Shown here: positions 4,899 to 43,964 of the stretch, one piece after another | Layout: the number at the start of each line of letters is the position of its first letter | Position numbering within the stretch: the stretch's first letter is position 1 | NCBI GenBank assembly: GCA_000091205.1 | Contig: AP006497.2 | DNA: 64,000 nt | Strand: one strand, 5' to 3' | Origin: Cyanidioschyzon merolae | Lineage: Eukaryota | The notes under the pieces: model-generated | What the model was told of the DNA's origin: nothing | The model's input: only the letters and a program-made list of their open reading frames with translations | Databases searched by the model: none | Made by a program: the position numbers and the translations under genes

Positions 4899-5355
4899 TT
4901 CAGGGCGTCCCTTTCCCACGGTGTCCGCTATGGCGATTCGATGCGCCGCGATCGCCGCCGACGTCGCCCGAGGCGGGTGCCGCGTGCGCGGCGCCGCCTT
5001 CTTTCGCCGATGTCGCGACCTACTCCGCCGACACTTGTTTCTAAGGCGACCACCGCGACAGTGTCGACGGCTTGAAGCTTCGGTTTGTGTCTTGCCAGTG
5101 ACGTTTGGACTATAGTCGCGACACTCGTCTCTCCGTGTGACTCGTTCTAGGAAGATTACTCAAAGCACTAAGCACAGATCTTCAAGCGTCTCTAACAAAC
5201 GAGTGCGTTGGACTTTGGGTTGGACGGCAAGCTCGTGAGGCCCTCCGAGTGAAGTGGAACCCTGTCGAAACGAAAGCGCTGTGGGCTGTTTCTGAAAAAG
5301 CGGTCGCACTGGCGCTTCTCTGAACCGCTGCGTTTCCGTGGCGTGTATCGAGTTT

Positions 5356-9641: not shown

Positions 9642-10893
9642 TGGTTCTCTTCCCAGTATCATCAGCAACAGCCTTTGCGAGATTCTTCGGCGACTGCTCC
9701 CTTTTCCGGTCTCTTGTCTCTGGCGTGCCATAGCCGATCTCTCCTGTGATCGATGTACTATGTCAGCAGTCAACGGATGCCGATGGCAGCATCGAAGCCT
9801 CGATTTCGCTGCTTCTGGCTGTCGCCGACGCGCTTCATGAACAGACCGTAGATGCGATCTACGCCCCGCTTGGCATGTTCGCCTTCTTCATCATATACCG
9901 CCTCTGTACGCCGTATACAGCGGTGACGCTTCGCTACCGTCGGTTATTCGCGTATGTCGACTGCGCGTCTTCCGCGGGCCGTCCTACAACGCGTGAACGC
10001 TTGCCTCATCGCCCGGCACATGCCCCGCCATGGCACAGAACGCTTCTCTGGGTGCGGTCCTCGGTTTCAGCACGCGGTGCCGTGCACTACGATTACGTGC
10101 TCCACCCGGGCGATCCTCTCGCCATTGTCTCTGTCCTCTGCACGAGCAAGCGCGCGCTCTTCCAATGGATAGATGATTTATGGAACGCGATGTCGTCCAC
10201 GATGAAACTTGTGTCGGAAGGAAAACCAGGGCTGGATCAGCATTCGAGAGATTCGGATGCGTCAACGCTGCCTCTGTACGAATCGATGACGCACTCTGCA
10301 CTAGCCGCACTCGCGGCGATACAAGAAGGCCGGTTCGAAACCTCTTCTACGTGCAACCGGAAGCGTCGTGTGCCTCAGGGAGTACAAGCCATGAGGTATG
10401 CCATGCTCCTGGGGAATGCGGTTCCGTTAGTGGCCTCAGAGAGAGGATAATTTGGCTTTCCGTGAGATTGTTTATTTGATGTGAGTGTCTCAGTGAACTC
10501 TTGGCGTGGACTTGCGAAGAGGTCGATGAGGGTCTTCGATGGGTTTTTCCTATTCAATCCAGATGCGCAGAATGCTGAGCCCACGACTTGCCTACAAAAA
10601 CTGGTTGATCGAAAACTTGGTGAATGCTTATGTTGAGCATGCTGCGCGCAATAAATGGAGAAGCGCGGAGTCTCGTACTTACGCATTGGATAACGATATC
10701 GGTTCTTTTACGGAACCCTGCTGGAGGGCGTCGTGCTTCATCATGATTTCGATAAAGGATCGAATTCCAGCAGTAAAGCATCCGAGGCGCTACAGCAAAA
10801 TGACGACCGAAAAAGCCACATCTGGCGTATGCATCCGTACGCTCTTGTTGCTGCAGGTCGAACGGTGAGGCTGGTCATCCCATAAAATTCTGA
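9642..10893 (+). repeat. Dispersed element family, copy A1. The near-identical core shared with A2 is 9642-10768.
   Basis: 9642-10768 matches 20960-22085 at a constant offset of 11317, apart from a 1-bp indel at the extreme 5' end. Paired ORF translations show only a handful of substitutions (about 99% identity). The left terminus is TGGTTCTCTTCCCAGTATC and the right terminus is ...AAAATTCTGA near 10893. Confidence 0.85.
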
Positions 10894-11102
10894 CAAAATC
10901 GACATGCAGTTCAGTATGCCACGTTAGCGTTGACATGGATGTCGCGCCTCTGAATTGTGTGCGCAAATTTGCGCACCGCAGTTAACCAGAGTCGCCTGTA
11001 CTCCATGATTGCTCAGGATATTTCCGGCGTGATACACGGAACAGCAAGCCTTGATCATTGCAGCACGCATCGTACCCAATCAGAAGCCGCAGACGAAAAT
11101 CG

Positions 11103-13325
11103 TTAGTCTGAACTCGCGGCCTCGATCGCTGACGAGGCATTGTCGCTGGCATGCGGCGGCTCTGCTGTTGAACGCTGCGACGCTGCAACGTCTGGCGTGC
11201 CTCTGTCTGATATGGGTGTGGCGGTCTGCGACCTCCAGGCCGGGGCCGCCGCAGCTGCTGCAGCTGCTGCAGCCTCGCGCGCAGCTTCCTCCGCCAGGTC
11301 CTCCGGGATGCGGTACCGATCCATGGAAGCGAACAACGTAGATGGCGCTCCCGTCGGTAGCGGCATTTTCAGGGCTGATATCAGCGGATTGCCCGTAGGT
11401 CTTGGTCTATAGAGTGGCTTTTCACCGGGCGATGTATGCACCGATCCGATAATTTGAAGACCGTGGAAGAGGTCGACGCCCAGCTCTGCCTTACAACGGC
11501 GATAGAAATCTTTCGGCGCCAGTTTTCCGCGACCGGTGCCGCGTGCAATCATGCGCTGCGACTTGACCCAGAGCCGCACCGAGCGAAAGCGATCTCGACG
11601 ACAAATAACGCTCGGATACGGATGCAATGGAGTCCATTCATCCGTTTCGTAACGCCATTGGCGGAGCTCGGCAAAACGCTCCTCCAGAGAATGTGTTCGC
11701 TTGTTTCTCTCAGCCTGAGGCGTATCTGCTGGCGCCGTCGATACGCCCTCATCCGAAAGATGATCGCCCTCAGATTGTTCAGTGGATTGTCTGGGGTGAG
11801 CGCGCGGCTGCGTGAAGCTATCGCTGCCAGTCTGGGAAGCCTCTGGTGACTGCTGCTCCAGTTCGTTTTGTTGCGAGCCCGCGTGCGTTGGTGTTGCGCG
11901 CCCCTCACTATCAACCTGAGACGTGACCTGCTGTTCCTTGTCCCGTTGGCGCTCCTCGCGTTTTCGTTGCCGCTCTGCTTCACGTTCTGCTCTACGTTTC
12001 GCAAGCAGCTCCGATTCCCGTTTTCGATAGACCGACTCCAGATCCTTGGCTGTTACACTAGCGTCGTTCACAAAGACAGGATGTTGTTTCAGCTCGGCTG
12101 CGAAAACTTTGAGCATTTTGGAGACGCTGCGGGGTTTCTTGTAGCGAAAATTAGCAGCATTCAACGCTTGAACCTGGTGGACAAAGTACTGGTGCACGCA
12201 ATCAAGAAGCGCTGGCCTCTCGAGCAGGTTCGATTCCGTTGCTCCGTCCGCAGCAGGCAGCTGCTCCGCTACAATGTGGAGCTGATCTCGTATCTGGCGT
12301 AGCTGCTCTTCGGCGTCGCGCTCTACCTGACGCCAGTATCGAGCAGATGCAACCTGCAAAAGCTTCGGCTTGGTTGTTCGCAGGAATGCTAAACGATTGA
12401 AGAGTTCCTCTTGAAAGCGGTACGGGACGGAGCCCTCACTGGTGGGCACCGAAGCAAGTCGAGCAGCAACAGCGCTTTCGCAAAATTCTGCCAGCAATTC
12501 CACGAGTTCTGGTACTTTCTCCCATCCATTCGGCTTCTTGTCTCCGTAGAGGTCACGAATGCGTGCCTCTAGACGCCGTGCCACCTCTTCCACTCGCTGT
12601 GGGAGCACAACTCGTGAATGGCGCCGCGACCAGGCCCATTCCTCAAAGTCATCGTCCTGGGATGGCCCCGAGCGTCCCGTCATCCCCGAAGCGAGCTGAT
12701 GACGCTCCGGCGTCGATGCCGCACTAGCAGGCCGCGGATCCGCCGAAGGAATCCGATTCCAGCGCTGCCCCAGGATGCTGGATAATACGCCAAAACCAGG
12801 CTGCATATCAGCTGCAAAATCCTCGGTTATTTCAGAGTCATCAATAAAGTCGGAGTCATAGTCATAAACGGAGTCGTCGGACTCGTAGTTGCCACGAACT
12901 GCAGCGTTCAGCCGTCGGCGTCGCCGTTTGCGACCTTGACGTTGTCGTCCGGTTGGAACTGTCGCCCTCACAGGTGCAATAGTCTGTGGAATTGAGGCAG
13001 GTGACCCCGGAGGCTGCTCGCGAACGTTTGTTTCCAGATCTCCCTGCTTCGTGGGAAGCCGCAAGCTCCCCGTCGCTTCCAAAGCGGAGACTGGCTTGTT
13101 TGCTTCCGTTTGAGAGGGCTGGGCAGCCTCAGTCCTGAATGCGACACCATCGGACGCTTCTAAAGTTCCTGAAGCGACGACGGAAGCGGTAGCAGTGGAC
13201 GGCGCAAGCACGCGAGTCGCGCCGGCCGTTTCCTCGCGTACGGGAGCCGGAGCAACAGCGCTCTGCCGACGCATGAGCTCCCGAAAGTTCAGTTCATTGG
13301 TCCGCTCAGGATCCAGCCTCAACAT
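11103..13325 (-). CDS. Protein of uncertain function with an Hpc2/ubinuclein-type (HUN-like) acidic motif and a coiled-coil, Lys/Arg/Glu-rich region
   Basis: ATG start, 740-aa uninterrupted ORF. The motif NYESDDSVYDYDSDFIDDSEITEDF resembles the HUN/HRD motif of HIRA-complex subunits. A poly-Ala run lies near the C-terminus. The functional call is tentative. Confidence 0.6.
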   Translation of the reverse strand: MLRLDPERTNELNFRELMRRQSAVAPAPVREETAGATRVLAPSTATASVVASGTLEASDGVAFRTEAAQPSQTEANKPVSALEATGSLRLPTKQGDLETNVREQPPGSPASIPQTIAPVRATVPTGRQRQGRKRRRRRLNAAVRGNYESDDSVYDYDSDFIDDSEITEDFAADMQPGFGVLSSILGQRWNRIPSADPRPASAASTPERHQLASGMTGRSGPSQDDDFEEWAWSRRHSRVVLPQRVEEVARRLEARIRDLYGDKKPNGWEKVPELVELLAEFCESAVAARLASVPTSEGSVPYRFQEELFNRLAFLRTTKPKLLQVASARYWRQVERDAEEQLRQIRDQLHIVAEQLPAADGATESNLLERPALLDCVHQYFVHQVQALNAANFRYKKPRSVSKMLKVFAAELKQHPVFVNDASVTAKDLESVYRKRESELLAKRRAEREAERQRKREERQRDKEQQVTSQVDSEGRATPTHAGSQQNELEQQSPEASQTGSDSFTQPRAHPRQSTEQSEGDHLSDEGVSTAPADTPQAERNKRTHSLEERFAELRQWRYETDEWTPLHPYPSVICRRDRFRSVRLWVKSQRMIARGTGRGKLAPKDFYRRCKAELGVDLFHGLQIIGSVHTSPGEKPLYRPRPTGNPLISALKMPLPTGAPSTLFASMDRYRIPEDLAEEAAREAAAAAAAAAAPAWRSQTATPISDRGTPDVAASQRSTAEPPHASDNASSAIEAASSD

Positions 13326-14790
13326 AGTCCACCTTTTCGGACTAGAAATTTGTTCTCAGATTGTGAAGACTGACCAGCGACAGACCCAACTGTTACGTTT
13401 CGTACGGAAAACGTGGATGCGGAGGAGATTGGTGGCGCGCAATGTCGCGCGCTCTGCCCTAGGCGGCGTACTAAGGAGCGGCCGTGCGTCTGGCAGAACG
13501 CGTTTCTGTTGTTGTTGTTGTTGTTGCTGAGTAACACTTTCATTACACTGTAGGTATAAAGCTGCCTCTATCCTAGTCTCATGCCCTGGTCAGGCTGTGG
13601 TATGGTAAAGACGGCAGCGCAACGCGGATCGGCATAGGACGGGTACCTAATGGAGCTCGGACGCTTGCAATCGTCGTGTGTGCGAGACCGAAAGCGCGCT
13701 GCATGGGTCCCAAGTGCAAGCTGCTGACCGTGCTTTATTGAAAAGCGTTGTTGGGATTTCCCATTTCGTTCTTGTGTCCCTACGTGAACGGATTGTGCAT
13801 CAGACGTTGAGGGTCAGCGCATTGCAGACAATGCAAACCGACCGCTAGCACATTTGCATCAGTACAGATTTTTCGTGCTTGCAGCCAGGCAATTCGTTCG
13901 GTGCATCCACGAGAGGGCCGAAACACTCCCCCAAAGTCACGTTTCCTATCAACTCTTACAACAAAAGCAGCGCACAGCTGGCGCGAGATAAAGCCGTCTC
14001 TCAAGTTCGTCACTCCGGGGGCGCGCACACGCGTACCTCTTGCGCACCGATACGATAACAGCGATGCTAAGGCGAAAGCGTCCCATATACATTCGGGATC
14101 CGTAGTGAGCTCGACAACTCGGTGGTAACTGCGTGGATCAAGCCTTTCTTTCCTGACGGACTACTACCCTGACGCTGAGGCGTGGAAATTCCCGCGAAAG
14201 GCATCAGGCAAAGCACGCTGAGGATCGCAGTCTAGCGGCCTGCTCGAGTCGCGAGTCCGGGAGCTTCCAGCTCGATGTAACCGGGCGAGACGATATAGAG
14301 TGTGTCCGCACGAGCGCGAACGGGCGTCGCGACCTCAGCACCCAAACCTCATGACAACAAAAACCACAAGCAATTGCGGGTTCCGGCAAAACTGATCAAT
14401 GGTTCTTTTAGCCACGTTACGTCGTCGAGTCTGGCCAAATGACCCCGCGAATTATCTTCAGACTAGACAGGTCCTGGTTGTTTGGTCAAAGTGCGTGGCG
14501 CGAAGCTCCCCATAGCTGCTTGCAGTTGGTGCTTCTGGTGACGCCGTGCAGGGCGAACGCTTTCGCAACCAAGGCCAGTACCGACCAACACTTCACATTG
14601 TAAATCGGTACCAGTATACTGAGACCTGAGCGGTTTGGTCTGCCGGGGTATCGGTAATATACCTCACCCGCCGATGAGTGCCATTGCGTAACAACGCAGC
14701 AGCGTACACGGTCTTGGTTTGTGTACAAAAGCCTGTGGACTGTCCGCTGGCTGCGCCAAGAAGAACGCTTGTCTTTGCGCTACATCCGGG

Positions 14791-16105
14791 TCAGATGAAA
14801 AAGGAACAGTAAACAGTTCGTTCTGGTCTAGATGTTTGATTTTTTCGGATCTTATGAACGATGTACAGCATCGACACTCAATGACCAAAAGTAGCACTAT
14901 TGGATTCATAAGATGCCTACCGATGCTCGGTCGCCGTTTCGGGATGGCATCTTCGGCGTTTCGTAGCTGGAATCGTAATGGAACCTAAACCATGAGCATT
15001 TATAACGCCCGCGAGCAACGGCTCCTAAAAATACCCGATATCGTTATCCAGTGTATACGGACTGGCCTCCACGCTTCTCTGCTCTGTATGTGCAGCGTGC
15101 CCAAATCGTGCAGTCTTCGAGCCTCTTCGGTTTCTGTTCCGAGGCAACGACTGGGCGCATCAATGCTGGCCACTGGATTCTCGGGGAATCGCGGTCGACG
15201 TTCTCCCTTGACGGCTTGTTTGCATGGTCATCCCGAAAGTCCACGGAGATGCTCATGTCAAACGATCGATTCGGTTCGAAAGACATATCCTGCTCTCTTT
15301 GTGGCCACTGAAGACTCCCGTTTTTTGAACAGCACCGTGATACCTCACTCTCTCACGGAGGTATGCTCCAAGAGGCTCTCCTCTGTCTCCCATTCGCATG
15401 GACAGAGGTCTTCGACTCGGACTTGAGCTGTCGCAGTGAACGCTCCCAGTGCAGCGCTCATTGCCGGTCCGCACCGAGCGATCATAGACAGATCGACGAA
15501 TCTCGACTTCCTCTACATCCTTTACTTGCCGCACGCTACGTGTTTCATCGCGGGTAGCATCGCGCTCCACACATCTTTTTTATCGAATGAAGCAGTGTGC
15601 GTTTGCGTGTGCAACGCATAGAGCAAGTGCCGAGACGATCTCCCGGGAAAAGCACGTCATCGAAGTGCGTCGCACCGGCTGCTGAAGCCGTGCATGGCAT
15701 CGAAAGAGGCGTCCTGTGTCCATCAATAGGGTCTGTCTAGCGACCGAACAAAAGGTCACGGGTTATAGGACGGCGCTCGGTCGGGAAGATGCGTTGGACA
15801 TACCGAAGCACCTGACCACAGTCAAGCGTTATTGCCCGAAAAGGCGCACCAGGCCGTATACAAAGATGAAGAATAGAACGGGCGAGGCGTGGATCGCTGC
15901 TGCTGACTCTACGTTACCTTTTGTCGATAACAGCCAGACGCAGCGAGCTTCAGAAGAGAAAGCTGCCGTCAGCTTCATTCAACAGCTGAAAAAGGATAAC
16001 GATCGCAGAAGAGACCTGAATACGTAAAGCCGGAGAAAACAGACTGAGAAAGGAGCAGAACGGCAGACAAAGACCGATGAATATAAATCTAGAGATAAGA
16101 GAGCA
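14791..16105 (-). repeat. Dispersed element family, copy B1 (inverted relative to A). The near-identical core shared with B2 is 14791-16068.
   Basis: 14791-16068 matches 23986-25261 at offset 9195, with a 2-bp indel near 15590. ORF pairs differ at about 7 of 144 aa, or roughly 98% identity. The reverse complement aligns along its length with copy A; for example CCGATATCGTTATCC at 15035 matches GGATAACGATATCGG at 10688. Confidence 0.85.
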
Positions 16106-16392
16106 GTGTCAGTGTTAGAGAACTCATTCTGACAAGAATCTGATGCGGTCGCAACTAGCTCCAGGCTGCCTACGCGGCGAGTTTGCGACGCACCTGCTGC
16201 GTCCAACGCTGCCGTGCCCCTGAACTATTAAATCCTGAAAAGGGAAAGTTATGTCGTCCAATGTACCGCATAGACTGCTTGATTACAAGGGTAACAGCAC
16301 TATCCGGTTGTGGAGCAATGCTTTCGTGGAGTATCGATTCCAAAATTTACTTGAGTCCGCAAAAAATGCGACTGAGCGCTGAGCACGGGTCC

Positions 16393-16632
16393 CTGCCGCT
16401 GTCGCTTGGTACCCGCGCACGGACACCAAGTGACGACTTGCAACCTCTACACGATCCATACTCAATTATGATCGCTGCCGGTGTCGCTTGGTACCCGCTC
16501 ACTGACGCCAAGTGGCGACTTGCAACCTCTATACGATCTATTCTCAATAATGACCGCTGCCGGTCTCGCTTGGTACTTGCGCACGGACACCAAGTGGCGA
16601 CTTGCAACCTCTACACGATCCATACTCAATCA
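16393..16632. repeat. Tandem repeat, 82-bp unit, about 2.9 copies
   Basis: CTTGCAACCTCTA recurs at 16437, 16519 and 16601. The unit begins CTGCCG(C/G)TGTCGCTTGGTACC. The repeat lies 160 bp downstream of the UCH37 stop codon. Confidence 0.85.
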
Positions 16633-16793
16633 TGTGTCCAATACAGCACCACAGCAAAGCGCTGTGCCCTTTACATCAGCGCCACCTGCGCTGATCTCGA
16701 CCGCATCATTTCAACAGACGCAGGAAGATTCTTGTCCCGGTTGTCAGCGGCATCAACGTTGGCGATGCGCTGCAATGGCGCAGCGGCGACGAA

Positions 16794-17834
16794 TTATGAG
16801 TGTTCGGCATGATTTGCGACCTGTTGCTCTCGCTTTCGCTTGGCCTCCTCTAGAAGCTCAACAAAGTGTCCATGATCAGCGAACAGAATCAGCAGCCGGA
16901 TCGCCAGCGGCACCAGGTCCATTCTTCGGAGCGTGGTGTCCAGCTGCCATCGTGCGTGCTTGGCCTCCTCCTGGGCCAACAGGGATGCAGCAACTTGATC
17001 ACCACCGCTCGCTCGGACCTGGAGCTCTGGACGAGGATCCCGATGAACAACCAAGACACTGAAGCGCAATTCTTGATTCGATGCTCGAGAGATGCGTTGC
17101 CGAACAGCCCGCAACGCTACGCAGACCCAGGCCAAATCATTGTGATGCTGCGCTTCGGCCGTGGGTAACTGTTGTTTCGAGTCTGGCGTTCCAGGCGCCA
17201 AAAGTGAAGCATCAAAAGTGCCCACTGCCGACGGTCCAGTCTGCAGGCCATCCAACTCGTATACCTTGCCGCCGAGAGGCACATAGGAGACGTAATGGAA
17301 GACATCTTCGCGCGGAAGCAAGTTACGAAGGGATGGATCCTCTTCCAGTAAAATACCCCGCAGAGGGGAGAATGAGTTGTGAACCGCGCAAATATCCCTA
17401 GCATTGGCCAAAAGCTCGCCCCGTGTCTCCGCATCAAGTGCCTGCGCAAACTCCGCGTACTCTGTCAAAAGCGGGCCCAGTTGCAGACCTCGTTGCCGTG
17501 CGTTCAAGAGCACTGCAAGCAAAGCTTGGGTGGCACACGCATTACGAATGACTTGCCGCGAAAAGATTAAATGATGAGGAGTTTCGGCAGTCGAGAGCGG
17601 CTCAGACGCCGGCGCTGCCAATACTTGGTCGTACTTGAAGAGAAAGATGAGGCCGAAAACCGGACACGCGAGGTTGGCTGCAACAAACGCTTCTTCACTG
17701 AGGTCCACGAGTTCGTCCACCTGGACACCTTTCACGCCCAGTTCAGTTATCATGGCAGTAAAGACACCAGGATCCGATTCGATGGTACACCAGCCTCCCT
17801 CCGAGTCAGCGCCGTCATCAACGGAGCTCGCCAT
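16794..17834 (-). CDS. UCHL5: Ubiquitin C-terminal hydrolase, UCH37/UCH-L5 type (peptidase C12 with C-terminal ULD tail)
   Basis: ATG start, 346 aa. Motifs WCTIESDPGVFT, VFGLIFLFKY and QVIRNACATQALLAVLLN are present. The C-terminal LRRMDLVPLAIRLL...EEAKRKREQ corresponds to the UCH37 RRKHNYLPF tail region. Confidence 0.9.
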   Translation of the reverse strand: MASSVDDGADSEGGWCTIESDPGVFTAMITELGVKGVQVDELVDLSEEAFVAANLACPVFGLIFLFKYDQVLAAPASEPLSTAETPHHLIFSRQVIRNACATQALLAVLLNARQRGLQLGPLLTEYAEFAQALDAETRGELLANARDICAVHNSFSPLRGILLEEDPSLRNLLPREDVFHYVSYVPLGGKVYELDGLQTGPSAVGTFDASLLAPGTPDSKQQLPTAEAQHHNDLAWVCVALRAVRQRISRASNQELRFSVLVVHRDPRPELQVRASGGDQVAASLLAQEEAKHARWQLDTTLRRMDLVPLAIRLLILFADHGHFVELLEEAKRKREQQVANHAEHS

Positions 17835-18279
17835 TGTCGTCGGTCAGTGCTGAACTTTTACGCTTCGCCAAAGGTGTACCCGTTGCGCTGCGTCTTTTCG
17901 ATACGCCTTCCCGAACTGATACCACGATCTATCTGGACTGTGAAACTCCGCAGGTAGACGCACAGACGGCAACCGCAGCCGAGAAGTTCTCGCCACCCTC
18001 AGGGCTGGATGTAGAGGCGTTGTTGACGGCTTGCGCGCGGCGGCCGCTGCGGTCGTGAGCATCCGCTCATGCCATTGGTGTACCATAGGTGACGTCGCTT
18101 TTACCGCTGCGTTGCGCCGACGCGGTGACTGTTCAGCGTCCGCGGAGGCCAGGTCTCTGGTCGCTACGGGCACCGGGCACAGGTTTTCTCAGTACGAGTG
18201 GCGCGGCAGCTTCTGGACTCGCGCATCTGGTACCAGTCTGTGCACGAACGGGACTGTTGCGTCTCCGTTTCCCGCGCGC

Positions 18280-19554
18280 ATGGCAGGGAAACGAGCGAGC
18301 GACGGTGCAGCGGCGAGCAACCCGTATAACTCGCTGTTTGCCGACATTCTTACGTCAGTAATATCCGTCACAGCCTTATTCATTGGTGCAAACATTATTC
18401 GAAAAAGGCTGGACCCAGCATTTGAATCGAAGAAGGAGCTTGAACGACGTCGCAAGGAGCTCGAGGAGCGCCTCCGGAAGCAACGCAGCAGCTGTGGGCG
18501 GCCACCGCTGGACCTTTCGGACTTGACCCCTAACGAAGAGGTTGTCGCGCACTATCTGGTCGATCCTGACGAACTTGATGTGCAGTCATTGGATGATGTT
18601 GGCGGCCTAGAAGAAATCAAAGAGGAACTGCGCGAACTTGTGATCTTACCGTTCCATCGCCCCGAACTCTTTCCTCCCGGCTCGCTTTTGCAACCGCCAA
18701 AAGGGATCCTTTTATATGGACCGCCAGGAACTGGGAAAACGATGCTCGCGAAAGCACTTGCAGCTGAGTCAAAGGCGTGTTTCTTAGCTATTTCGCCAGC
18801 GACGCTGTTGAGCAAGTGGGTTGGCGAAACGCAGCAGCTCACCCGGGCAGTCTTCTCGCTCGCGTACAAAATCCAGCCGTGCATCATATTCATCGATGAG
18901 ATTGACGCGCTGTTCCGCACGAGGAGTGCGCAGGATCACGAGGTATACCGGGATTTCAAAGCGGAGATGATGCAGCTCTGGGACGGATTGACGACGGACT
19001 CCAGCGCCCAAGTGCTGGTACTGGGTGCCACGAACCGTCCCTGGGATGTCGATACAGCGATACAACGTCGGATGCCGAGGAGCTTCCTGGTGGACCTCCC
19101 GGGCGTGGAACAACGCAAGCGCATTCTTGATGTCATTCTCCGGTCCGACAGGCACCGCTTGGAGGCATCTACCGAAGAACTCGCGAAGCTTACCGAAGGT
19201 TATTCGGGAAGCGATTTGCGCGAGCTCTGCAGGGCCGCTGCGCTTCTTGTCCTACGAGATGCAATGCGCGAAGCCAAAAAGTGCGGCGTCGACGTTTCCC
19301 AAGTGCAGCTGCGCAGCATGCGACTTGAGGATTTTGAGCGAGCGATGGAGCGAGTAGCACCGACCGGTGCCCATGCTGAAATTTTTCGGTACCGCCAAAC
19401 TCTGGAACGTGTGCGGAAGCTGCGCGTCGCGCAAGAAAACAGTAATGTAGAGTCCAGAGAACCCGATGAGCAAACATTGGTTGCCGGAATCGAGGAGGCG
19501 CTCCTGGTAGAGGCTAATGAGTTTGTGGAGCGCGTTGGTCGTCGGCTGGGCTGA
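18280..19554 (+). CDS. MSP1: Membrane-anchored AAA ATPase of the MSP1/ATAD1 family
   Basis: There is an N-terminal hydrophobic segment (ILTSVISVTALFIGANII), Walker A GILLYGPPGTGKT, Walker B IIFIDEIDALF, and DHEVYRDFKAEMMQLWDGL. The ORF-track start at 18031 adds an implausible leader. I prefer the ATG at 18280 (MAGKRASD..., 424 aa). Confidence 0.87.
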   Translation: MAGKRASDGAAASNPYNSLFADILTSVISVTALFIGANIIRKRLDPAFESKKELERRRKELEERLRKQRSSCGRPPLDLSDLTPNEEVVAHYLVDPDELDVQSLDDVGGLEEIKEELRELVILPFHRPELFPPGSLLQPPKGILLYGPPGTGKTMLAKALAAESKACFLAISPATLLSKWVGETQQLTRAVFSLAYKIQPCIIFIDEIDALFRTRSAQDHEVYRDFKAEMMQLWDGLTTDSSAQVLVLGATNRPWDVDTAIQRRMPRSFLVDLPGVEQRKRILDVILRSDRHRLEASTEELAKLTEGYSGSDLRELCRAAALLVLRDAMREAKKCGVDVSQVQLRSMRLEDFERAMERVAPTGAHAEIFRYRQTLERVRKLRVAQENSNVESREPDEQTLVAGIEEALLVEANEFVERVGRRLG

Positions 19555-19647
19555 GCGGCAAACCCGCGTAAGGCAATGGCAATTGTTTCCAGCAAGTGCT
19601 TCTCGTTGATCGAGGTGCCTGACGCAGCGCGGTCCAGAATGGAGCAT

Positions 19648-19740
<93 letters not shown>
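19648..19740. repeat. (CACG)n microsatellite, about 23 units
   Basis: An uninterrupted GCACGCAC... run is read directly, starting ~95 bp downstream of the AAA ATPase stop codon. Confidence 0.95.
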
Positions 19741-20959
19741 TGTTCCTGTGACGTGTCCACCAGATCGGGGCGCACGCATTGCCACAGGCAGCGTTTAATG
19801 CGCGGATCACTCGTTGGGAAGCGCGCGTATAAATGCAGCGCGCGATCTCATACGATGCGTGTGACGATACGCAAGGCACGTTCAAGCTGCACAGCTGATG
19901 CAGTGTACCTCTGGATACAGAGCAGGATTGCGTTGTGCTCCTGCCTAGTATGGGTTGTGTGTACGGCGGGCACCTGCATCTTTGCGTAAAGACACCAGCG
20001 AAGCTTCGCAGCCGATACTATCTACCCGTAGATATGTCCCTGAATTGCGTTGTGCTTCTGCCCGTCATCAATGTGTTATGCGAAGGTTCTACCAGACGCT
20101 GCTACGCAGGAATACGCTTGCAGATCACTTCGCGCGCCGTGATTTGAGCAATTCTTGTTGGTGAAGCGGACAGACGTTGCACGCCGCGCACATCAGGCAT
20201 GTGTGCACGCGATCCGCTCGTCGCTGCGTGCTGCATGAGGAAGCACAACCGTTTGACTTTGTGAGTCTTATTCGAGCCTGCCTGCTAGTTTCAGGATGGG
20301 CTTGCACCTTCAAAAGCAAAATATGAGCCAGCAATAATGATCATGTGAACCCCCAGTGCTTCCTTTCGTTCGAGGCAGGACAAACCCGGTTTCATTGGCA
20401 GAATTCCTTTCTGATTCGCAGATACCAACTTTTACCGTTTTCCTTGCAAAGCGTTGCAAGAATGAAATAAACCTCTGGCGGAGCGCTTGACACGTTCAAC
20501 TGCTAGCATGCTTGCCAAACGCCACTCGAATCCCGGAACACCGAAATGAAACCCAGTTTTTCGTCCTGAAATTCTCATCCTAGAGACGCCAGCAAGATGA
20601 GCATGGATGCTGTGGGCTTTGAGCCCTGCAGCGTGCTGCGACATGCTACCGCCCACGATCGCACCTCCGAGGCTAAGAAGGCATAGGCTCGTGTGCGATG
20701 GCGCAACGTTCCGTGAATGCCATGCCCCGTGAACAGCTCGCTTGACGTCGATACAATCGCCACCGTACTGGAGCTAAGTTCGCCGTAGCGTCCAATGCAG
20801 CACCCGCTTGTTTTCGACGAGCACGACGATATTTCGTCCTGTGGAGCGGCCGAAACATGTCCAATACCATGGCCACAAAAAGAAACGTTGATCCTCTCTA
20901 CTTTCATGTCAGAATATAATTTCAGAGGTTGTCTACCAAGGTCGTTCACCGTGAAGTTT

Positions 20960-22209
20960 TGGTCTCTTCCCAGTATCATCAGCAACAGCCTTTGCGAGAT
21001 CCTTCGGCGACTGCTCCCTTTTCCGGTCTCTTGTCTCTGGCGTGCCATAGCCGATCTCTCCTGTGATCGATGTACTATGTCAGCAGTCAACGGATGCCGA
21101 TGGCAGCATCGAAGCCTCGATTTCGCTGCTTCTGGCTGTCGCCGACGCGCTTCATGAACAGACCGTAGATGCGATCTACGCCCCGCTTGGCATGTTCGCC
21201 TTCTTCATCATATACCGCCTCTGTACGCCGTATACAGCGGTGACGCTTCGCTACCGTCGGTTATTCGCGTATGTCGACTGCGCGTCTTCCGCGGGCCGTC
21301 CTACAACGCGTGAACGCTTGCCTCATCGCCCGGCACATGCCCCGCCATGGCACAGAACGCTTCTCTGGGTGCGGTCCTCGGTTTCAGCACGCGGTGCCGT
21401 GCACTACGATTACGTGCTCCACCCGGGCGATCCTCTCGCCATTGTCTCTGTCCTCTGCACGAGCAAGCGCGCGCTCTTCCAATGGATAGATGATTTATGG
21501 AACGCGATGTCGTCCACGATGAAACTTGTGTCGGAAGGAAAACCAGGGCTGGATCAGCATTCGAGAGATTCGGATGCGTCAACGCTGCCTCCGTACGAAT
21601 CGATGACGCACTCTGCACTAGCCGCACTCGCGGCGATACAAGAAGGCCGGTTCGAAACCTCTTCTCCGTGCAACCGGAAGCGTCGTGTGCCTCAGGGAGT
21701 ACAAGCCATGAGGTATGCCATGCTCCTGGGGAATGCGGTTCCGTTAGTGGCCTCAGAGAGAGGATAATTTGGCTTTCCGTGAGATTGTTTATTTGATGTG
21801 AGTGTCTCAGTGAACTCTTGGCGTGGACTTGCCAAGAGGTCGATGAGGGTCTTCGATGGGTTTTTCCTATTCAATCCAGATGCGCAGAATGCTGAGCCCA
21901 CGACTTGCCTACAAAAACTGGTTGATCGAAAACTTGGTGAATGCTTATGTTGAGCATGCTGCGCGCAATAAACGGAGAAGCGCGGAGTCTCGTACTTATG
22001 CATTGGATAACGATATCGGTTCTTTTACGGAACCCTGCTGGAGGGCGTCGTGCTTCATCATGATTTCGATAAAGGATCGAATTCCCGCTGCAAAGAGTCG
22101 AGGAAGCCACTTGGAAAATACGACCGAGACTCCCAGAACTACCTAAGAATCCGTAAGCCGCCATTGTTGCACGTCCTTTTTCGAAGCTGTTCATCTAGAA
22201 AATTTCGGA
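20960..22209 (+). repeat. Dispersed element family, copy A2. The near-identical core shared with A1 is 20960-22085.
   Basis: See A1. Beyond 22085 the similarity to A1 drops to roughly the inter-subfamily level, but ATCCGTA, TTGTTGC and AAAATT anchors can still be followed. Confidence 0.8.
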
Positions 22210-22924
22210 GAATTCGAAGAGCAGGAATATGGCGAGCGATTCTGCGTCCCATTCTAAGCTGGCACGGGCCTAGAAGAAATGATATTTGAAGCTGCATCAG
22301 CATGCATTATTCGTTTGCTCGCAGCATCCGACAACTGTAGAATGACTCGATAGCCTCGAATCCACCCGGTAGGAGCACCAGCCTCCTTTCGATACGCATG
22401 CCTGTTCAAGAGCATCCCAGAGAAATGACCTCGGAAGGTACGGGACTCGACAGTGTGATATCGCAGAAGCATTGGGCTACTTCAGCATGTTCACCTACAA
22501 CGGCGCACTTGGTGCTGTGAATGTCATAGGGCGCCATGTGTACGATTGCCCCGCCCGATTCAGGGCTTGTATCTTTCCAGCAGGAAAAGTTATCCTCAAT
22601 TCGAGTGCTCCTTCCTGGAAGCGGTCGTGTAACAATGTGCTTTGAGGAATCACATGCCGCGCCTAGTCTAGACTTGAACGATGAAAGCGCCGCGACGATC
22701 TCGCTCGCTGCCTCACAGACGTCGGGCTCCGAGCGAAACCTAGTCGTTGCGGAGACCTCTTCTGCATGTCTGCAGCATAAATCGGATTTCTCTCGGGTGC
22801 ATCTTTTGAGCACTTCATGGAACGACAATCACAACGTTCCAATCGAGAGCCCTGGTTGTGTACTGCAATACCTCCGATTAGATCATCGAAGCCGGATTTC
22901 TCTGCTGTACCTCGTACGAGCATC

Positions 22925-23734
22925 TCAAGGGGCATAGATCACAACGTCTCCATCAAGAGCACTTGTCGAATGCTGCAATTCTTCCGGGTAGACGATGGAA
23001 ACGAGCGCATTCACTGTATTCCGATAATGTGCAAGCATCTCAACTGTCCCCAGTCGGTTCGCGACATGGAAAAACCCAGTAACGTGGAGTACCTGAGCCT
23101 TTGGATAGCGTTCTAAAGCTTCCGCGATACTGAAAGCCATTGTTGCGTCCCAGAGAGATTGCGCTTGGAGCATTCTCTGCATGCGCTCCTGTTGAGCTTG
23201 TGCAGAGCTCGGATCCGGTCGCATTACCTGCTGCATGATGGCCTGAAAGGCTTCGCTGTAGGCGTTACTGGGTGCAGGCCAGGGCGTCGGTGCGCACCAC
23301 GCACGTTCCTTCGGTGAGAGCGTCTCCATAACCGCTTGCTGGCCTTGTTTTGCCACTCGGCTTGTGATACTGCGAGGGGCGTTCGCGGCGAGTACAGCAA
23401 GGTTATTGGTGCGGGCGAAACGCACCAACGGCACGTACGGTTCGGGAACCACGCTCTCTATCTCGTCACGAAGCATCGCCTCGTTGAGTACATGTTGTTG
23501 GGATCGATCTAGGAACTCCAAAGAGAGCAAAAGTTGTCGATTCTGTCGTTGACTACTTAGCCACAGAGCTTCCAGAATACGAAGTTCAAGCTGCTGCGCG
23601 ACCGAGTGCTCGTGATTTTCACCAATAAACACGACTTGTTCACAAACTTCAGAGGCGAAGATGCTCAAAAGTTTTTCAAGGGATACCGACTGCCCACGGA
23701 AAAAACAACGGTGCACACCCGACGGAACCGCCAT
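22925..23734 (-). CDS. ChaN/DUF399-like (haem-binding uptake, Tiki superfamily) protein
   Basis: ATG start, 269 aa. VVFIGENHEHSVAQQLELRILEAL, LLLSLEFLDRSQQHVLN and LAANAPRSITSRV match the GExH / EMF..Q / NAPR pattern of the ChaN family. Confidence 0.75.
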   Translation of the reverse strand: MAVPSGVHRCFFRGQSVSLEKLLSIFASEVCEQVVFIGENHEHSVAQQLELRILEALWLSSQRQNRQLLLSLEFLDRSQQHVLNEAMLRDEIESVVPEPYVPLVRFARTNNLAVLAANAPRSITSRVAKQGQQAVMETLSPKERAWCAPTPWPAPSNAYSEAFQAIMQQVMRPDPSSAQAQQERMQRMLQAQSLWDATMAFSIAEALERYPKAQVLHVTGFFHVANRLGTVEMLAHYRNTVNALVSIVYPEELQHSTSALDGDVVIYAP

Positions 23735-23985
23735 GAAAGCAATATATCGTGAACCGGTCTATCGTGTGGATGCTTTCAAGTTTCAAGCGCCGCGGCTTGC
23801 CTCGTGCCGTCGTATCGGCTTTGAGGCGAGCGCTCGAGTTTTGAACCGTGTAATTGGTACTCACAGGAATTCATCGGTCATTTTCGTAACATTAGGAAGG
23901 AAACGCAACTTGCCGCGCTCGATGGGCAAGAGATAGGGAGCATGTGCCGAGAAAACGGGTACAGCAGTGCCATGCTAGAAGCGAA

Positions 23986-25305
23986 TCAGATGAAAAAGGA
24001 ACAGTAAACAGTTCGTTCTGGTCTAGATGTTTGATTTTTTCGGATCTTATGAACGATGTACAGCATCGACACTCAATGACCAAAAGTAGCACTATTGGAT
24101 TCATATGCTGTTTACCGATGCTCGGTCGCCGTTTCGGGATGGCATCTTCGGCGTTTCGTAGCTGGAATCGTAATGGAACCTAAACCATGAGCATTTATAA
24201 CGCCCGCGAGCAACGGCTCCTAAAAATACCCGATATCGTTATCCAGTGTATACGGACTGGCCTCCACGCTTCTCTGCTCTGGATGTGCAGCGTGCCCAAA
24301 TCGTGCATTCTTCGAGCCTCTTCGGTTTCTGTTCCGAGGCTACGACTGGGCGCATCAATGCTGGCCACTGGATTCTTGGGGAACTGCGGTCGACGTTCTC
24401 CCTTGACGACTTGTTTGCATGGTCATCCCGAAAGTCCACGGAGATGCTCATGTCAAACGATCGATTCGGTTCGAAAGACATATCCTGCTCTCTTTGTGGC
24501 CACCGAAGACTCCCGTTTTTTGGACAGCACCGTGATACCTCACTCTCTCACGGAGGTATGCTCCAAGAGGCTCTCCTCTGTCTCCCATTCGCATGGACAG
24601 AGGTCTTCGACTCGGACTTGAGCTGTCGCAGTGAACGCTCCCAGTGCAGCGCTCATTGCCGGTCCGCACTGAGCGATCACAGACAGATCGACGAATCTCG
24701 ACTTCCTCTACATCCTTTACTTGCCGTACGCTACGTGTTTCATCGCGGGTAGCATCGCGCTCCACAAATCTTTTTTCAAATGAAGCAGTGTGCGTTTGCG
24801 TGTGCAACGCATAGAGCAAGTGCCGAGACGATCTCCCGGAAAAAGCACGTCATCGAAGTGCGTCGCACCGGCTGCTGAAGCCGTGCATGGCATCGAAAGA
24901 GGCGTCCTGTGTCCATCAATAGGGTCTGTCTAGCGACCGAACAAAAGGTCACGGGTTATAGGACGGCGCTCGGTCGGGAAGATGCGTTGGACATACCGAA
25001 GCACCTGACCACAGTCAAGCGTTATTGCCCGAAAAGGCGCACCAGGCCGTATACAAAGATGAAGAATAGAACGGGCGAGGCGTGGATCGCTGCTGCTGAC
25101 TCTACGTTACCTTTTGTCGATAACAGCCAGACGCAGCGAGCTTCAGAAGAGAAAGCTGCCGTCAACTTCATTCAACAGCTGAAAAAGGCCAACGATCGCA
25201 GAAGAGACCTGAATACGTAAAGCCGGAGAAAACAGACTGAGAAAGGAGCAGAACGGCAGACGAATCCATCAAAGGCTGGTGCTTATGATACTGAGAAGAG
25301 ACCCA
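23986..25305 (-). repeat. Dispersed element family, copy B2 (inverted relative to A). The near-identical core shared with B1 is 23986-25261.
   Basis: See B1. 25262-25305 (GGCTGGTGCTTATGATACTGAGAAGAGACCCA) is the reverse complement of the A left terminus (TGGTTCTCTTCCCAGTATCATCAGCAACAGCC) with a few substitutions. This defines a shared element end. Confidence 0.85.
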
Positions 25306-33562: not shown

Positions 33563-33758
33563 TCAAACTGCATGAAGCGAAAAGGCGCCGCCGCCGCCGC
33601 TGCCGCCTGCTGCGCAACGAAACATCGCGCGACGTCCAAGTCCGATACAAGCTCTGCTGCTACACATCACGCCTGTAAACGTACTCGCCGCGAGTCGCGT
33701 CGTTCTTCTGTACTTTGTGAGAGCGCTTGGGAGCATGCCTGGTTGAGCACGAGTGCTC

Positions 33759-40573: not shown

Positions 40574-42893
40574 TGGAGGTTTGGGGTACGAACGTGACTT
40601 GGAAGTGCCCCGCCCCGCGGTTGCGTATCTCGAACGTTTGCCTGTCTGGGGCAAGCCTCGTTAGAATGCAGCACTTCAGTGCGAAGTGAGTATACGAGCT
40701 GCAAGAGCTGTCGACCAATCCACGGAGCGCGCGCTTCGTGGAACCATCTGATTCAGAGGATCCCGGGCAGAGCCATGATCTCTAGGCTTTCGAAGGCGTA
40801 TCGCTGCTTTTGCCGGCATTGGCGCTGTTCGTGGTCCAGATGTATTGGAAGCGAGTCCGACCGAACGCTATGCGCTGTCGAGAGAAACGACTGATTCAGC
40901 GTGTTATTTACTTTGCGATGGAGACGAATCCGCAGGCCACGATCGAGCCCTTTGCGAACAGTGCTTATTTCTGGTCGATCTGTAGATGTGCAGAATGGAG
41001 GTGTCAGGTGCATGGAATGCGCGTCACGATACAACGCGGATCTTGTGGCACGACATGGCATTGCACAGCTGGTACCGAGGAAGCTTCGTCAGAAACCAAC
41101 AGGGAGCTATTCTTTCCGTGTGGAATCGTGAGAAGCGTGCAATCGCTATGGGTTGCCATCCGTCGTGTATTTCAACGCAGCGAGGCCGTTTCATCTAGCG
41201 TGAATTCTAAAATGTGCAGTATCTGCTCATCGGTCAACTGCAGTACACTCGTGTCCGAATGAAGTGGAACCTGTCCACTTGCCTACGACAGGCGCACGCT
41301 CTCAAGTCTGGACAGCTCCCACTGCCATGAACACTGGTCTTTGCGGGCTTTTTATACAACTGATTCTTTTTTCTTCTTGACATCTTCGGCTCTAAACTCG
41401 CCTGGCTCTCCTGCCCGACCAGCTCCATCGTCCGCAATTCAAAGGATTTTGGCGGAGGCGTTCAATTCTCGTGTTCACCGCTTCTGCACGTGATTCACAA
41501 GCACCACGCGTAAGCGGAAAACTTGCGATCTACGCTTCGCTTGTTGCTTTCAATATCTTTTTGTCAGGTTTTGCGCGCCCTTCGCAGCGCTGACGCGTCA
41601 CAATTGGTAACGGTTCCCGAATGCGTCGGCCGCTCCTCGCTCTTCGGTAGACGCCCTGTGGCGCGCTAACGCTCGCTTGATCGCTTGTTTCATGCCCTTG
41701 ACAGGTACAGAAAGGAGGTCTCCGCTGCTTTGCTGTGTTTTGGCTCCTAGTCCGAGCCATGCGAACAACCCCTCGACTGGGAGACGCCCTCGGAGAATAC
41801 TCTGTTCGCTACAGGCGCAAGCGCACGCTGTTCCATTTGATGGAGGAATCGTTGAAAGCGATATTGTCCGGGATGGAAGAAGCACCCGAAAAGGAATTCT
41901 AGGCTCGAGAACACGTCGAGAAATGTTGATCCATCTCCGGCTCCTTGTTTCCAAAATGCTGACGCTTGCTCTATCGGAAGCCGTCGCTTTATGGACAGAG
42001 GTCCATGTCCAAGACACGTGTCCGTGCAAAAACCAGGATGCCGATGCCTTTCGAGGCATATCTCGTGATAGGCTTCGAGCTGGTGTCGCATGCATTTTGC
42101 CGATGGCCTCTAAGAGAGGGGCAATTTGTTTCTTGAGCGGAATCGATTCTTTGAAGTGAAAAGATCGTTGAATTCGCAGCGTGAACCTGTGAACAAGCAA
42201 TCAACGGATGACGTCGAGGTGTTTCCCTTTTCAAGTCAGCGGTGCGAATTCCAACGGCCACGATTTGTCCTGGAACAGAGAGATCGAAATCTTGAAAAAT
42301 GTGAAATTTGAGCATGCTACACGTACAAAAAGGAGAAGCGTGGAAGCCTGCACATGTTAATTGGATGAAGATATCCACTTTTTTAAGAGCTCTTGTTTCA
42401 TTGTGTCGCGAATCATTTCGATTCCGGCGACGTAACGAATTCCAGCAGCAAAGGATCGAAGGAATCGCTGCGAAAAGACTACCAAGAATAACAAACCCCG
42501 TATGCAACCGAACGTTCTTTCTACTGTTCTGCGACCACCAAAGCTCCACGTCTAGAACATCTTCTGAAAAACAATCACAACGCAGGAACAAAGCGACTGC
42601 TTCAGTGTTCCGTGTTTATCCGACACAACTCCAGCGGACGGAAATCTGTCCCTATCCGAGAACAGCGAATAGTTGCAACGCAGGCATGCCCTGCACCCGA
42701 TCGCATCAGGTAAACGGCCTTCTTCGATTGAGACAACGTTTCTCCGCACCGGGGATTCCCGATTTATCCATCCCACAGAGCAGGCAAACCATGGAGATCA
42801 CGTATTCGGTGAAAGCGTTGTCACCAGGTCTCCTCTGGTTGCGTTCAGCGCGATTGCATGCCCATGGACGTTGCCATACGACGCATCGGTCGC

Positions 42894-43903: not shown

Positions 43904-43904
43904 G

Positions 43905-43964
<60 letters not shown>

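What the first reader, a model, noticed from the sequence alone, without database searches (positions are those of the whole stretch)
9642..25305. Inverted A and B copies bracket a single minus-strand gene, twice in a row
The order along the sequence is as follows: A1(+), the ubinuclein-like gene (-, 11103-13325), B1(inverted), the UCH37 and MSP1 genes, A2(+), the ChaN-like gene (-, 22925-23734), B2(inverted). In both cases the A copy lies just 3' of the gene, 209 bp and ~715 bp from the stop codon. In both cases the inverted B copy lies 5' of the gene. The two enclosed genes are unrelated and the spacings differ (about 3.9 kb versus 1.8 kb between the flanking A and B copies), so this is not a simple segmental duplication. 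A gene enclosed by inverted copies of the same element can invert or be mobilised as a unit. It could also reflect the elements acting as paired boundary or regulatory modules.
Basis: partly seen in the sequence, partly recalled or inferred. Interest (0 to 1): 0.62.

Follow-up and report, generated by a model that had tools for sequence, protein, structure and literature searches.

The report
Decayed transposon relics flanking two genes
The "A" and "B" elements are long-dead copies of a Tc1/mariner-type jumping gene that litter the DNA between genes in the red alga Cyanidioschyzon merolae; they did not move the enclosed genes, but one of those genes (ChaN) has been flipped between its two oppositely oriented copies.

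Summary
A1/A2 and B1/B2 are near-identical direct pairs, and A and B are distant inverted relatives (about 59-63% identical).

The window is C. merolae 10D chromosome 15. A and B are two of at least five old lineages of a ~1.3-kb repeat family, with seven copies in this window alone. The family consensus encodes, on the strand opposite A(+), an IS630/Tc1-mariner-type transposase (HTH plus DDE_3; 38% identical to an intact relative, E=2e-42). Every copy is full of stop codons, and I found no terminal inverted repeats or target-site duplications.

The A,B,A,B look comes from mosaic copies. The A1/A2 cores are 99.5% identical but their last ~170 bp are as diverged as unrelated lineages. This points to local gene conversion between old relics.

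Three relatives (Cyanidiococcus, Cyanidium and a metagenomic relative) keep the same gene order without any element, so the genes were not mobilised. ChaN alone is inverted in C. merolae, with both breakpoints in the intergenic regions that hold the inverted A2 and B2.

Metagenome contigs also show a "ChaN cassette at the other site" junction. I could not decide whether these are assembly chimeras or real recombinants.

Overall this is an ordinary transposon-relic landscape with one suggestive inversion.

The parts
9646..10934 (+). A1: relic of an IS630/Tc1-mariner-type transposon. The strand given is the 'A orientation'; the transposase remnant reads on the opposite strand. Core 9646-10768 is 99.5% identical to A2; tail 10769-10934 is old and diverged.
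11103..13325 (-). It keeps the ancestral position and orientation.
14790..16110 (-). B1: relic of a second lineage, 98.2% identical to B2 over 14791-16071. Its 5' ~40 nt (16072-16110) are diverged from B2.
16794..17834 (-). UCH37/UCH-L5 (BAM81415), in ancestral orientation.
18280..19554 (+). MSP1-like AAA ATPase (424 aa from the ATG).
20963..22263 (+). A2: core 20963-22086 is A-lineage; tail 22087-22263 belongs to a different old lineage, so the copy is a mosaic.
22925..23734 (-). ChaN-like haem-binding protein (PF04187; BAM81417). It is inverted relative to three related genomes.
23986..25305 (-). B2: full-length B-lineage relic.
41277..42624 (+). C: a third, full-length old lineage of the same family.
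53668..54966 (+). D: a fourth, full-length old lineage.
46864..47638 (+). E: a 5'-truncated copy, 99% identical to D 54192-54966. It ends at the family's 3' terminus.
10660..10700 (+). The most conserved block of the family (22 of 40 columns invariant in five lineages). It falls in the HTH-coding part of the transposase remnant and recurs in all seven window copies.

Best explanation
A and B are two independently decayed lineages of a ~1.3-kb IS630/Tc1-mariner-superfamily DNA transposon. This family filled the intergenic DNA of Cyanidioschyzon merolae after its split from Cyanidiococcus. That much is shown.

Each of the four long intergenic regions around CMO015C and ChaN holds one relic. Later, non-allelic gene conversion (homology-bounded overwriting) between same-orientation relics 9-11 kb apart made A1 and A2 99.5% identical over 1123 bp, and B1 and B2 98.2% identical over ~1280 bp. 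The original diverged ends were left in place, and this produces the A,B,A,B appearance. This step is inferred from the mosaic structure.

The enclosed genes were never moved; the gene order is ancestral. This is shown.

ChaN was inverted in the C. merolae lineage, with both breakpoints in the intergenic regions that carry the inverted pair A2/B2. The most likely cause is recombination between the two inverted copies while they were still similar, or aberrant transposition using ends of two copies. This step is inferred. The relics themselves have no demonstrated function.
For: Family:
- The profile finds 7 copies in the window, plus B3 just left of the window and F elsewhere.
- Five lineages are 54-59% identical pairwise in a star-like pattern, with 1-7-nt indels not in multiples of three and no period-3 signal.
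- No frame is open: 6-18 stops per frame.

Identity:
- The consensus gives Pfam DDE_3 E=1.8e-6, HTH_Tnp_Tc3_2 E=2.6e-4 and HTH_33 E=1e-3, in one frame and in the right order. Single copies give nothing.
- A profile of relic ORFs retrieves 165 protein clusters. These include intact transposases P0102, P0147 and P0132, whose DDE_3 scores are E=6e-23, 3e-29 and 4e-18.
- The consensus is 38% identical to P0102 over 204 aa, E=2e-42.
- One relic is annotated as CME048C on chromosome 5.

Mosaics:
- A1/A2 core matches 1117/1123, while the tails are no more alike than unrelated lineages.
- B3's 3' part is 95.6% identical to B, while its 5' part is 57-62%.
- In 10D, A2 carries A1 alleles at 9775, 9789 and 9817, where an environmental A2 differs.

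Synteny:
- L042, L043 and L044 have the same gene order and no element (nhmmer E>0.4).
- ChaN is the only gene whose orientation differs between C. merolae and Cyanidiococcus.

Literature:
- A repeat expansion to 12.7% of the C. merolae genome against 0.59% in Cyanidiococcus doubles the intergenic length (PMC9812998).
- Few intact transposons but many interspersed repeats are reported (PMC1955436).
Against: - Gene conversion between sequences only ~55-70% identical outside the converted tract is mechanistically unfavourable. The pre-conversion similarity is unknown.
- The A tract ends exactly at the family's 5' terminus. A transposition-like copy would also produce this.
- A2 and B2 are now only ~59-63% identical with no segment of higher identity, so nothing in the sequence records an A2 x B2 exchange.
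- Single-gene inversions also occur without any visible element: MSP1 is inverted in Cyanidium.
- One inversion among seven genes coinciding with one of two bracketed genes has p~0.29.
- No TIRs or TA duplications were detectable.
Confidence: 0.6

Rival explanations
1. Recent transposition: A and B are non-autonomous elements mobilised in trans. Each inserted twice recently, and the alternating order and orientation are chance.
For: Identity boundaries coincide with family termini at the A 5' end, the B 3' end and the D/E 3' end. Intact relatives of the transposase exist in public data.
Against: - A2's tail, B1's 5' 40 nt and B3's 5' part are colinear, homologous and old. A fresh insertion would not land in register inside an old copy three times.
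- There are no TIRs or TSDs.
- All copies are stop-ridden.
- No A- or B-lineage copy was found outside this ~70-kb region in the metagenome scan.
Confidence: 0.12
2. The ChaN inversion has nothing to do with the elements. It is one of the small inversions common in compact genomes, and the relics merely occupy the enlarged intergenic regions.
For: MSP1 is inverted in Cyanidium relative to the others with no family element at that locus. About 40% of intergenic regions in the window hold a relic, so co-location is cheap. A2 and B2 are only ~59-63% identical.
Against: Both breakpoints fall in regions that hold oppositely oriented family members. The inversion is specific to the one lineage that has the elements.
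Confidence: 0.35
3. Composite-transposon or cassette behaviour: A-gene-B units move or are exchanged as units, with A and B acting as ends or as homology arms.
For: Environmental contigs join the A1 left flank-A-ChaN (6 contigs) and UCH37-B-ChaN (2 contigs), as if the ChaN cassette sat at the CMO015C site. C. merolae is known for efficient homologous recombination (my own knowledge).
Against: - Both genes sit at their ancestral positions.
- Reference-type junctions are also found: A1 left flank-A-CMO015C in 3 contigs and UCH37-B-CMO015C in 2, partly in the same samples.
- The contigs are short-read assemblies that also switch or stop at other repeats (L001 and L011 at w~4500-5070).
- There is no TSD around the units.
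Confidence: 0.1
4. Tandem segmental duplication of an A-...-B block, followed by differential gene loss.
For: A1-A2 and B1-B2 have similar spacing (11.3 kb and 9.2 kb) and the same order and orientation.
Against: - There is no residual similarity outside the elements.
- Identity boundaries lie at or inside the element ends.
- The A and B pairs differ in divergence: 0.5% against 1.8%, about p=0.002 by my chi-square on the counts.
- Relatives without elements already have both genes at these positions.
Confidence: 0.02
5. The relics have been co-opted as paired chromatin or regulatory boundaries around single genes.
For: A 40-nt block is unusually conserved across lineages. Repeats in C. merolae are reported to carry H3K27me3 (cited in PMC13353863).
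Against: - The conserved block lies in the HTH-coding part, and lineage F was ascertained with it.
- The rest of the element decays uniformly with no structure or family hit.
- Element orientation and distance relative to neighbouring genes are inconsistent for C, D and E compared with A and B.
- Relatives manage the same genes without the elements.
Confidence: 0.05

Closest known systems
IS630/Tc1/mariner (ITm) superfamily DNA transposons (Pfam DDE_3 plus HTH_Tnp_Tc3_2), as decayed genomic relics
   Same: The length (~1.3 kb) fits. The consensus carries an N-terminal HTH, then the 'DE(T)' and 'DN(I)AFH' catalytic motifs, then a 'YSP' motif, in the right order. It is 38% identical to an intact DDE_3 transposase whose D-to-E spacing is 35.
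   Different: No copy is intact. The third catalytic residue is not recoverable (YSPRGSP in place of YSPNFNPIE). No terminal inverted repeats or TA duplications can be seen.
Interspersed repeats and repeat expansion of C. merolae (Nozaki et al. 2007, PMC1955436; Cho et al. 2023, PMC9812998)
   Same: The repeats are dispersed, intergenic and specific to C. merolae versus Cyanidiococcus. They make up about 13% of this window, against 12.7% genome-wide. They carry truncated ORFs.
   Different: The published 253-copy family is described as 3.2 kb on average, with a WSV486-like ORF. I could not test whether it is the same family. The published 'eight class II elements related to bacterial transposases' may be the least decayed members.
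Inversions between inverted repeats or transposon copies (IS- or TE-mediated inversions)
   Same: A single gene is inverted in the lineage that carries oppositely oriented family members at both breakpoint regions.
   Different: The present identity of the two copies is only ~59-63%. The breakpoints cannot be mapped to the nucleotide. There is no evidence of ongoing flipping.
Non-allelic (ectopic) gene conversion and concerted evolution of dispersed repeats
   Same: There are sharp switches from more than 98% identity to lineage-level divergence inside colinear homologous copies. The flanks are unrelated, the partners lie within ~20 kb, and the pattern is seen three times (A1/A2, B1/B2, B3).
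   Different: One tract end coincides with the end of homology. The divergence of the unconverted parts is higher than is usual for conversion partners.

Membership tests
IS630/Tc1/mariner transposon | Transposase with an N-terminal HTH DNA-binding domain followed by a DDE/D catalytic domain (Pfam DDE_3) | tested here: met
   The consensus of 5 lineages gives DDE_3 E=1.8e-6 (28.3 bits against a cut-off of 28.6), HTH_Tnp_Tc3_2 E=2.6e-4 and HTH_33 E=1e-3, in the same frame and correct order. BLASTP to the intact transposase P0102 gives E=2e-42. P0102 and P0147 score DDE_3 at E=6e-23 and 3e-29.
IS630/Tc1/mariner transposon | Complete catalytic triad D, D, E/D | tested here: inconclusive
   The first motif (ATDETAF) and second motif (VDNIAFH) are recognisable. 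At the third the consensus reads YSPRGSP, where P0102 has YSPNFNPIE.
IS630/Tc1/mariner transposon | Terminal inverted repeats | tested here: not met
   Local alignment of the first 120 nt against the reverse complement of the last 120 nt, for the consensus and five copies, scores 16-26. Shuffled controls score 17 +/- 3, with a maximum of 36.
IS630/Tc1/mariner transposon | TA target-site duplication | tested here: not met
   The flanks of the seven copies show no TA...TA or other direct duplication. The exact termini are uncertain by a few bases.
IS630/Tc1/mariner transposon | Open transposase reading frame (autonomous copy) | tested here: not met
   There are 6-18 stops per frame in every copy, and the longest open stretch is 238 codons.
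Composite transposon / gene cassette mobilised as a unit | The cargo gene sits at a new genomic position relative to genomes that lack the element | tested here: not met
   The gene order Rrp5-ChaN-MSP1-UCH37-CMO015C-QRPTase-SAMDC is identical in L042, L043 and L044, which lack the elements.
Composite transposon / gene cassette mobilised as a unit | Alternative junctions in other strains | tested here: inconclusive
   Eight short-read contigs show the ChaN cassette at the CMO015C site and five show the reference arrangement. None crosses the second site. Chimeras cannot be excluded.
Inverted-repeat-mediated inversion | The enclosed segment is inverted relative to the ancestral state, with oppositely oriented homologous copies in both breakpoint regions | tested here: met
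   ChaN is plus/plus while all other genes are plus/minus in BLASTN of L042 and L044 against the window. Gene calls in L043 agree. A2(+) and B2(-) flank it.
Inverted-repeat-mediated inversion | Breakpoints inside the repeats, and repeat identity sufficient for recombination | tested here: not met
   A and B are 59-63% identical with uniform mismatch density. Breakpoints cannot be mapped because intergenic DNA does not align between species.
Non-allelic gene conversion | Mosaic identity: a near-identical tract abutting colinear, homologous but old-diverged sequence, with unrelated flanks | tested here: met
   A1/A2 match 1117/1123, then the tails are about as alike as other lineage pairs. B1/B2 are 98.2% identical, then 55% in the 5' 40 nt. 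B3 is 95.6% identical in its 3' part and 57-62% in its 5' part.
C. merolae 253-copy 'novel interspersed repetitive element' (Nozaki 2007) | Truncated ORF weakly similar to WSSV WSV486; mean size 3.2 kb | not testable with these tools
   No WSV486 sequence or genome-wide copy list was available. The size differs (1.3 kb).
Structured RNA gene | Match to a known RNA family or tRNA | tested here: not met
   Rfam at gathering thresholds gave 0 hits and ARAGORN found 0 genes in the whole window.

The most novel reading that the evidence does not exclude
The near-identical relic pairs act as natural homology arms. In wild C. merolae populations the segment between A and B is exchanged or replaced by homologous recombination, putting the ChaN cassette at the CMO015C site. 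This would be a standing structural polymorphism. ChaN's inversion would belong to the same relic-driven micro-rearrangement process, making dead transposons the main engine of gene-scale rearrangement in this otherwise very stable genome.
Probability: 0.15. Interest if true: 0.55.

Novelty: new member of a known kind. Interest (0 to 1): 0.3.

Why it matters
The result gives a concrete identity, decayed IS630/Tc1-mariner transposons, to at least part of the repeat expansion that doubled intergenic length in the model red alga C. merolae.

It shows that these relics still interact, through local homogenisation of copies. It also offers one dated example where a gene-sized inversion coincides with an inverted relic pair.

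For users of C. merolae genetics, 1.1-1.3-kb near-identical repeats 9-11 kb apart are potential off-target recombination substrates and sources of assembly error at CMO013-CMO019.

None of this calls for a new kind of system.

Tried and rejected
- **Protein-coding paralogues.** Rejected: A-versus-B mismatches are 162/160/154 by codon phase, there is no lag-3 autocorrelation, and stops occur in every frame.
- **RNA gene.** No Rfam or tRNA hit.
- **Pfam on single ORFs and single-copy translations.** Nothing found.
- **PDB sequence searches** with consensus fragments and with a profile. Nothing useful.
- **Word-indexed homologue search with the A ORF.** Only A itself was found.
- **TIR and TSD searches.** Negative.
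- **TnpB/Fanzor idea.** It came from the 'RDLNAAINIL' motif and a weak PF07282 hit (E=0.007). I dropped it in favour of the much stronger DDE_3/HTH evidence.
- **Intact relative on contig L045.** No clear inverted termini, and the host is unknown.
- **Phasing the recombinant-looking contigs with SNPs in A.** Uninformative, because real and chimeric recombinants look alike.
- **Extending the synteny comparison beyond Rrp5 and SAMDC.** Not possible within the look-up caps. Synteny with Cyanidiococcus ends near w5160, next to another repeat.
- **Link to the WSV486-like family.** Could not be tested.
Full report
**What is there**

- A1 9646-10851 and A2 20963-22170 are direct repeats, 97.1% identical.
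- B1 14791-16071 and B2 23986-25264 are direct repeats, 98.0% identical.
- A aligns to B only in inverted orientation, at about 63% over ~1.1 kb (E 2e-9 to 6e-16).

Exact protein look-ups place the window on the 902,900-bp chromosome 15 of Cyanidioschyzon merolae 10D. ChaN is BAM81417, UCH-L5 is BAM81415, SAMDC is BAM81412, and the 740-aa gene is CMO015C. The 'ubinuclein-like' label has no support: CMO015C has no Pfam hit at E<=0.001.

**A and B belong to a larger family**

A profile built from the four copies finds three more copies in the window:
- C, 41277-42624(+)
- D, 53668-54966(+)
- E, 46864-47638(+), a 5'-truncated copy 99% identical to D

A pattern scan of metagenome contigs adds B3, an internally deleted copy about 4 kb left of the window start. 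It also adds an unlinked copy, F.

Aligning the 3' regions shows that the family extends to a common terminus '...CATCTGAC'. The true spans are therefore A1 9646-10934, A2 20963-22263, B1 14790-16110 and B2 23986-25305.

The five lineages A, B, C, D and F are 54-59% identical to one another in a star-like pattern. Their small indels are not in multiples of three. Mismatches show no codon periodicity, 162/160/154 by phase. Every frame of every copy has 6-18 stops. There are no Rfam or tRNA matches.

**What the family is**

The majority consensus of the five lineages, read on the strand opposite to A(+), matches three Pfam families in one frame and in the right order:
- HTH_Tnp_Tc3_2, E=2.6e-4
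- HTH_33, E=1e-3
- DDE_3, E=1.8e-6

The individual copies match nothing. A consensus that looks more protein-like than any single copy is the behaviour expected of neutrally decayed copies of a coding ancestor.

A profile of the relic ORFs, searched against 1.84 billion representative proteins, finds 165 clusters at E<=1e-3. Most are short relic ORFs. They also include the intact transposases P0102, P0147 and P0132, whose DDE_3 scores are E=6e-23, 3e-29 and 4e-18.

The consensus is 38% identical to P0102 over 204 residues, E=2e-42. The DE and DNIAFH motifs are aligned, and the consensus has 'YSP' where P0102 has YSPNFNPIE. One relic ORF cluster contains the annotated CME048C on chromosome 5, so the family is dispersed across the genome.

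I found no terminal inverted repeats and no target-site duplications. The copies are therefore relics of an IS630/Tc1-mariner-type transposon, not recognisable active elements.

This fits the literature. C. merolae has few intact transposons but many interspersed repeats (PMC1955436). A repeat expansion to 12.7% of the genome, against 0.59% in Cyanidiococcus, doubled the mean intergenic length (PMC9812998). Family copies occupy about 13% of this window.

**Why it looks like A, B, A, B**

A1 and A2 are near-identical only from the family's 5' end to 10768 (1117 of 1123 matches). From there to the 3' terminus they remain colinear and homologous, but are no more alike than any two lineages.

B1 and B2 are 98.2% identical, except for the 5' ~40 nt. 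B3 is 95.6% identical to B in its 3' part and only lineage-level similar (57-62%) in its 5' part.

Three mosaics of this type, all between copies within ~20 kb, are best explained by non-allelic gene conversion between relics that were already in place.

A simple segmental duplication is excluded for four reasons:
- Nothing outside the elements is shared.
- Identity boundaries lie at or within the element ends.
- The two pairs differ in divergence, 0.5% against 1.8%.
- The related genomes show that both genes were already at these positions.

Fresh transposition is unlikely, because a new insertion would not land in register within an old copy three times. A weak point remains: conversion between such diverged partners is mechanistically unfavourable, so this step stays an inference.

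**Synteny test**

Three loci were compared with the window: the orthologue of CMO015C in Cyanidiococcus yangmingshanensis (L042), a metagenomic relative (L044), and Cyanidium caldarium (L043). All three show the same gene order: Rrp5, ChaN, MSP1, UCH37, CMO015C, QRPTase, SAMDC. None contains a family element (nhmmer E>0.4), and their intergenic regions are shorter. The genes were therefore not carried in by the elements.

One gene differs in orientation. In all three relatives ChaN lies on the strand opposite to CMO015C. In C. merolae it lies on the same strand. In BLASTN of L042 and L044 against the window, ChaN is the only gene aligned plus/plus while all the others are plus/minus.

The inversion is thus derived in the C. 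merolae lineage. Its breakpoints lie in the MSP1-ChaN and ChaN-Rrp5 intergenic regions, which are exactly where the oppositely oriented A2 and B2 sit. This is what recombination between inverted copies, or aberrant transposition using ends from two copies, would produce.

The evidence is circumstantial:
- A2 and B2 are now only ~59-63% identical, with no recombinant trace.
- CMO015C, in the other bracket, is not inverted.
- MSP1 is inverted in Cyanidium with no element in sight.
- One inversion among seven genes falling on one of two bracketed genes has a chance probability of about 0.29.

**Related strains**

Metagenome contigs about 99% identical to the window carry all four elements. Those that cross a complete A or B copy fall into two groups.

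| Junction | Type | Contigs |
|---|---|---|
| A1 left flank-A-CMO015C | reference | L040, L048, L056 |
| UCH37-B-CMO015C | reference | L017, L047 |
| A1 left flank-A-ChaN | alternative | six contigs |
| UCH37-B-ChaN | alternative | L004, L023 |

Both groups sometimes come from the same sample. No contig crosses MSP1-A-x or x-B-Rrp5.

The alternative junctions would be produced if the ChaN cassette replaced the CMO015C cassette by double crossover in A and B. They would equally be produced by short-read assemblers mis-threading 1.1-1.3-kb repeats. The same contigs also switch or stop at other repeats. I could not decide between the two. Long reads or the published T2T assembly of strain MS1 would settle it (PMC13353863).

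**Verdict**

There is a plausible but unproven link between one inverted relic pair and the inversion of ChaN.

With about 40% of intergenic regions in this window holding a relic, bracketing by itself is about what chance predicts. This is a new, decayed member of a known transposon superfamily in a genome already known for a repeat expansion. Interest is modest.

Noticed in passing
window 4341-4898, 33271-33565, 44696-45250; 38543-38930 vs 44305-44692: A second dispersed repeat family. Three copies are 85-87% identical. A 388-nt piece is 98% identical in inverted orientation, and it abuts the 44696-45250 copy. Environmental contigs L001 and L011 leave colinearity with the window inside or next to the 4341-4898 copy. 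Synteny with Cyanidiococcus also ends near w5160.
   Followed up: partly
window 57677-58713: A tandem array of a 107-bp unit, 9.7 copies, 97% matches, lying between the DEAD-box helicase gene and the next ORF.
   Followed up: no
window 16393-16634 and 49636-49824: Short tandem arrays: 82 bp x 3 (87% matches) between B1 and UCH37, and 75 bp x 2.5 (99% matches).
   Followed up: no
window 19649-19740 (also 43904-43965): A perfect (CGCA)23 microsatellite downstream of MSP1. Environmental contigs L017 and L019-L021 align around it with a break at 19668-19721, which suggests length variation. A (GCCT)15 run lies at 43904-43965.
   Followed up: no
L054 (joins window 10791 to 9519): One environmental contig lacks 9520-10790. 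This is a 1271-bp deletion removing most of A1 plus 126 bp of its left flank, with almost no junction microhomology. It is either a real deletion allele or an assembly artefact.
   Followed up: partly
L028/L029/L033; about 4 kb left of window position 1: B3 is a third B-lineage copy with an internal deletion of profile positions ~168-757. Its similarity to B1 runs 15 bp beyond the terminus shared with B2.
   Followed up: partly
family consensus, transposase strand; corresponds to about window 9760-9850 in A1: The motif 'FVKCVDNSQKQRNRDLNAAINILRLLK' gives a weak hit to Cas12f1-like_TNB (PF07282, E=0.007). It resembles both the TnpB RuvC-III motif and the Tc1 'PDLNPIE' motif. However, it lies 133 codons after the second catalytic D and in another frame, so it is probably chance.
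   Followed up: partly
L043 (Cyanidium caldarium) 7160-8440: MSP1 is inverted in Cyanidium relative to Cyanidiococcus, L044 and C. merolae, with no family element at the locus. Single-gene inversions therefore occur without these relics.
   Followed up: no
window 39710-40573: A 287-aa ORF with a clear HNH endonuclease domain (HNH_5, E=2e-15), about 700 bp upstream of relic C.
   Followed up: no
window 9775, 9789, 9817: An environmental A2 copy (L018) carries T, A and C at these sites. Both 10D copies and the environmental A1 copies carry G, G and G. This cluster suggests that A2 in 10D was overwritten by A1 after the strains split.
   Followed up: partly
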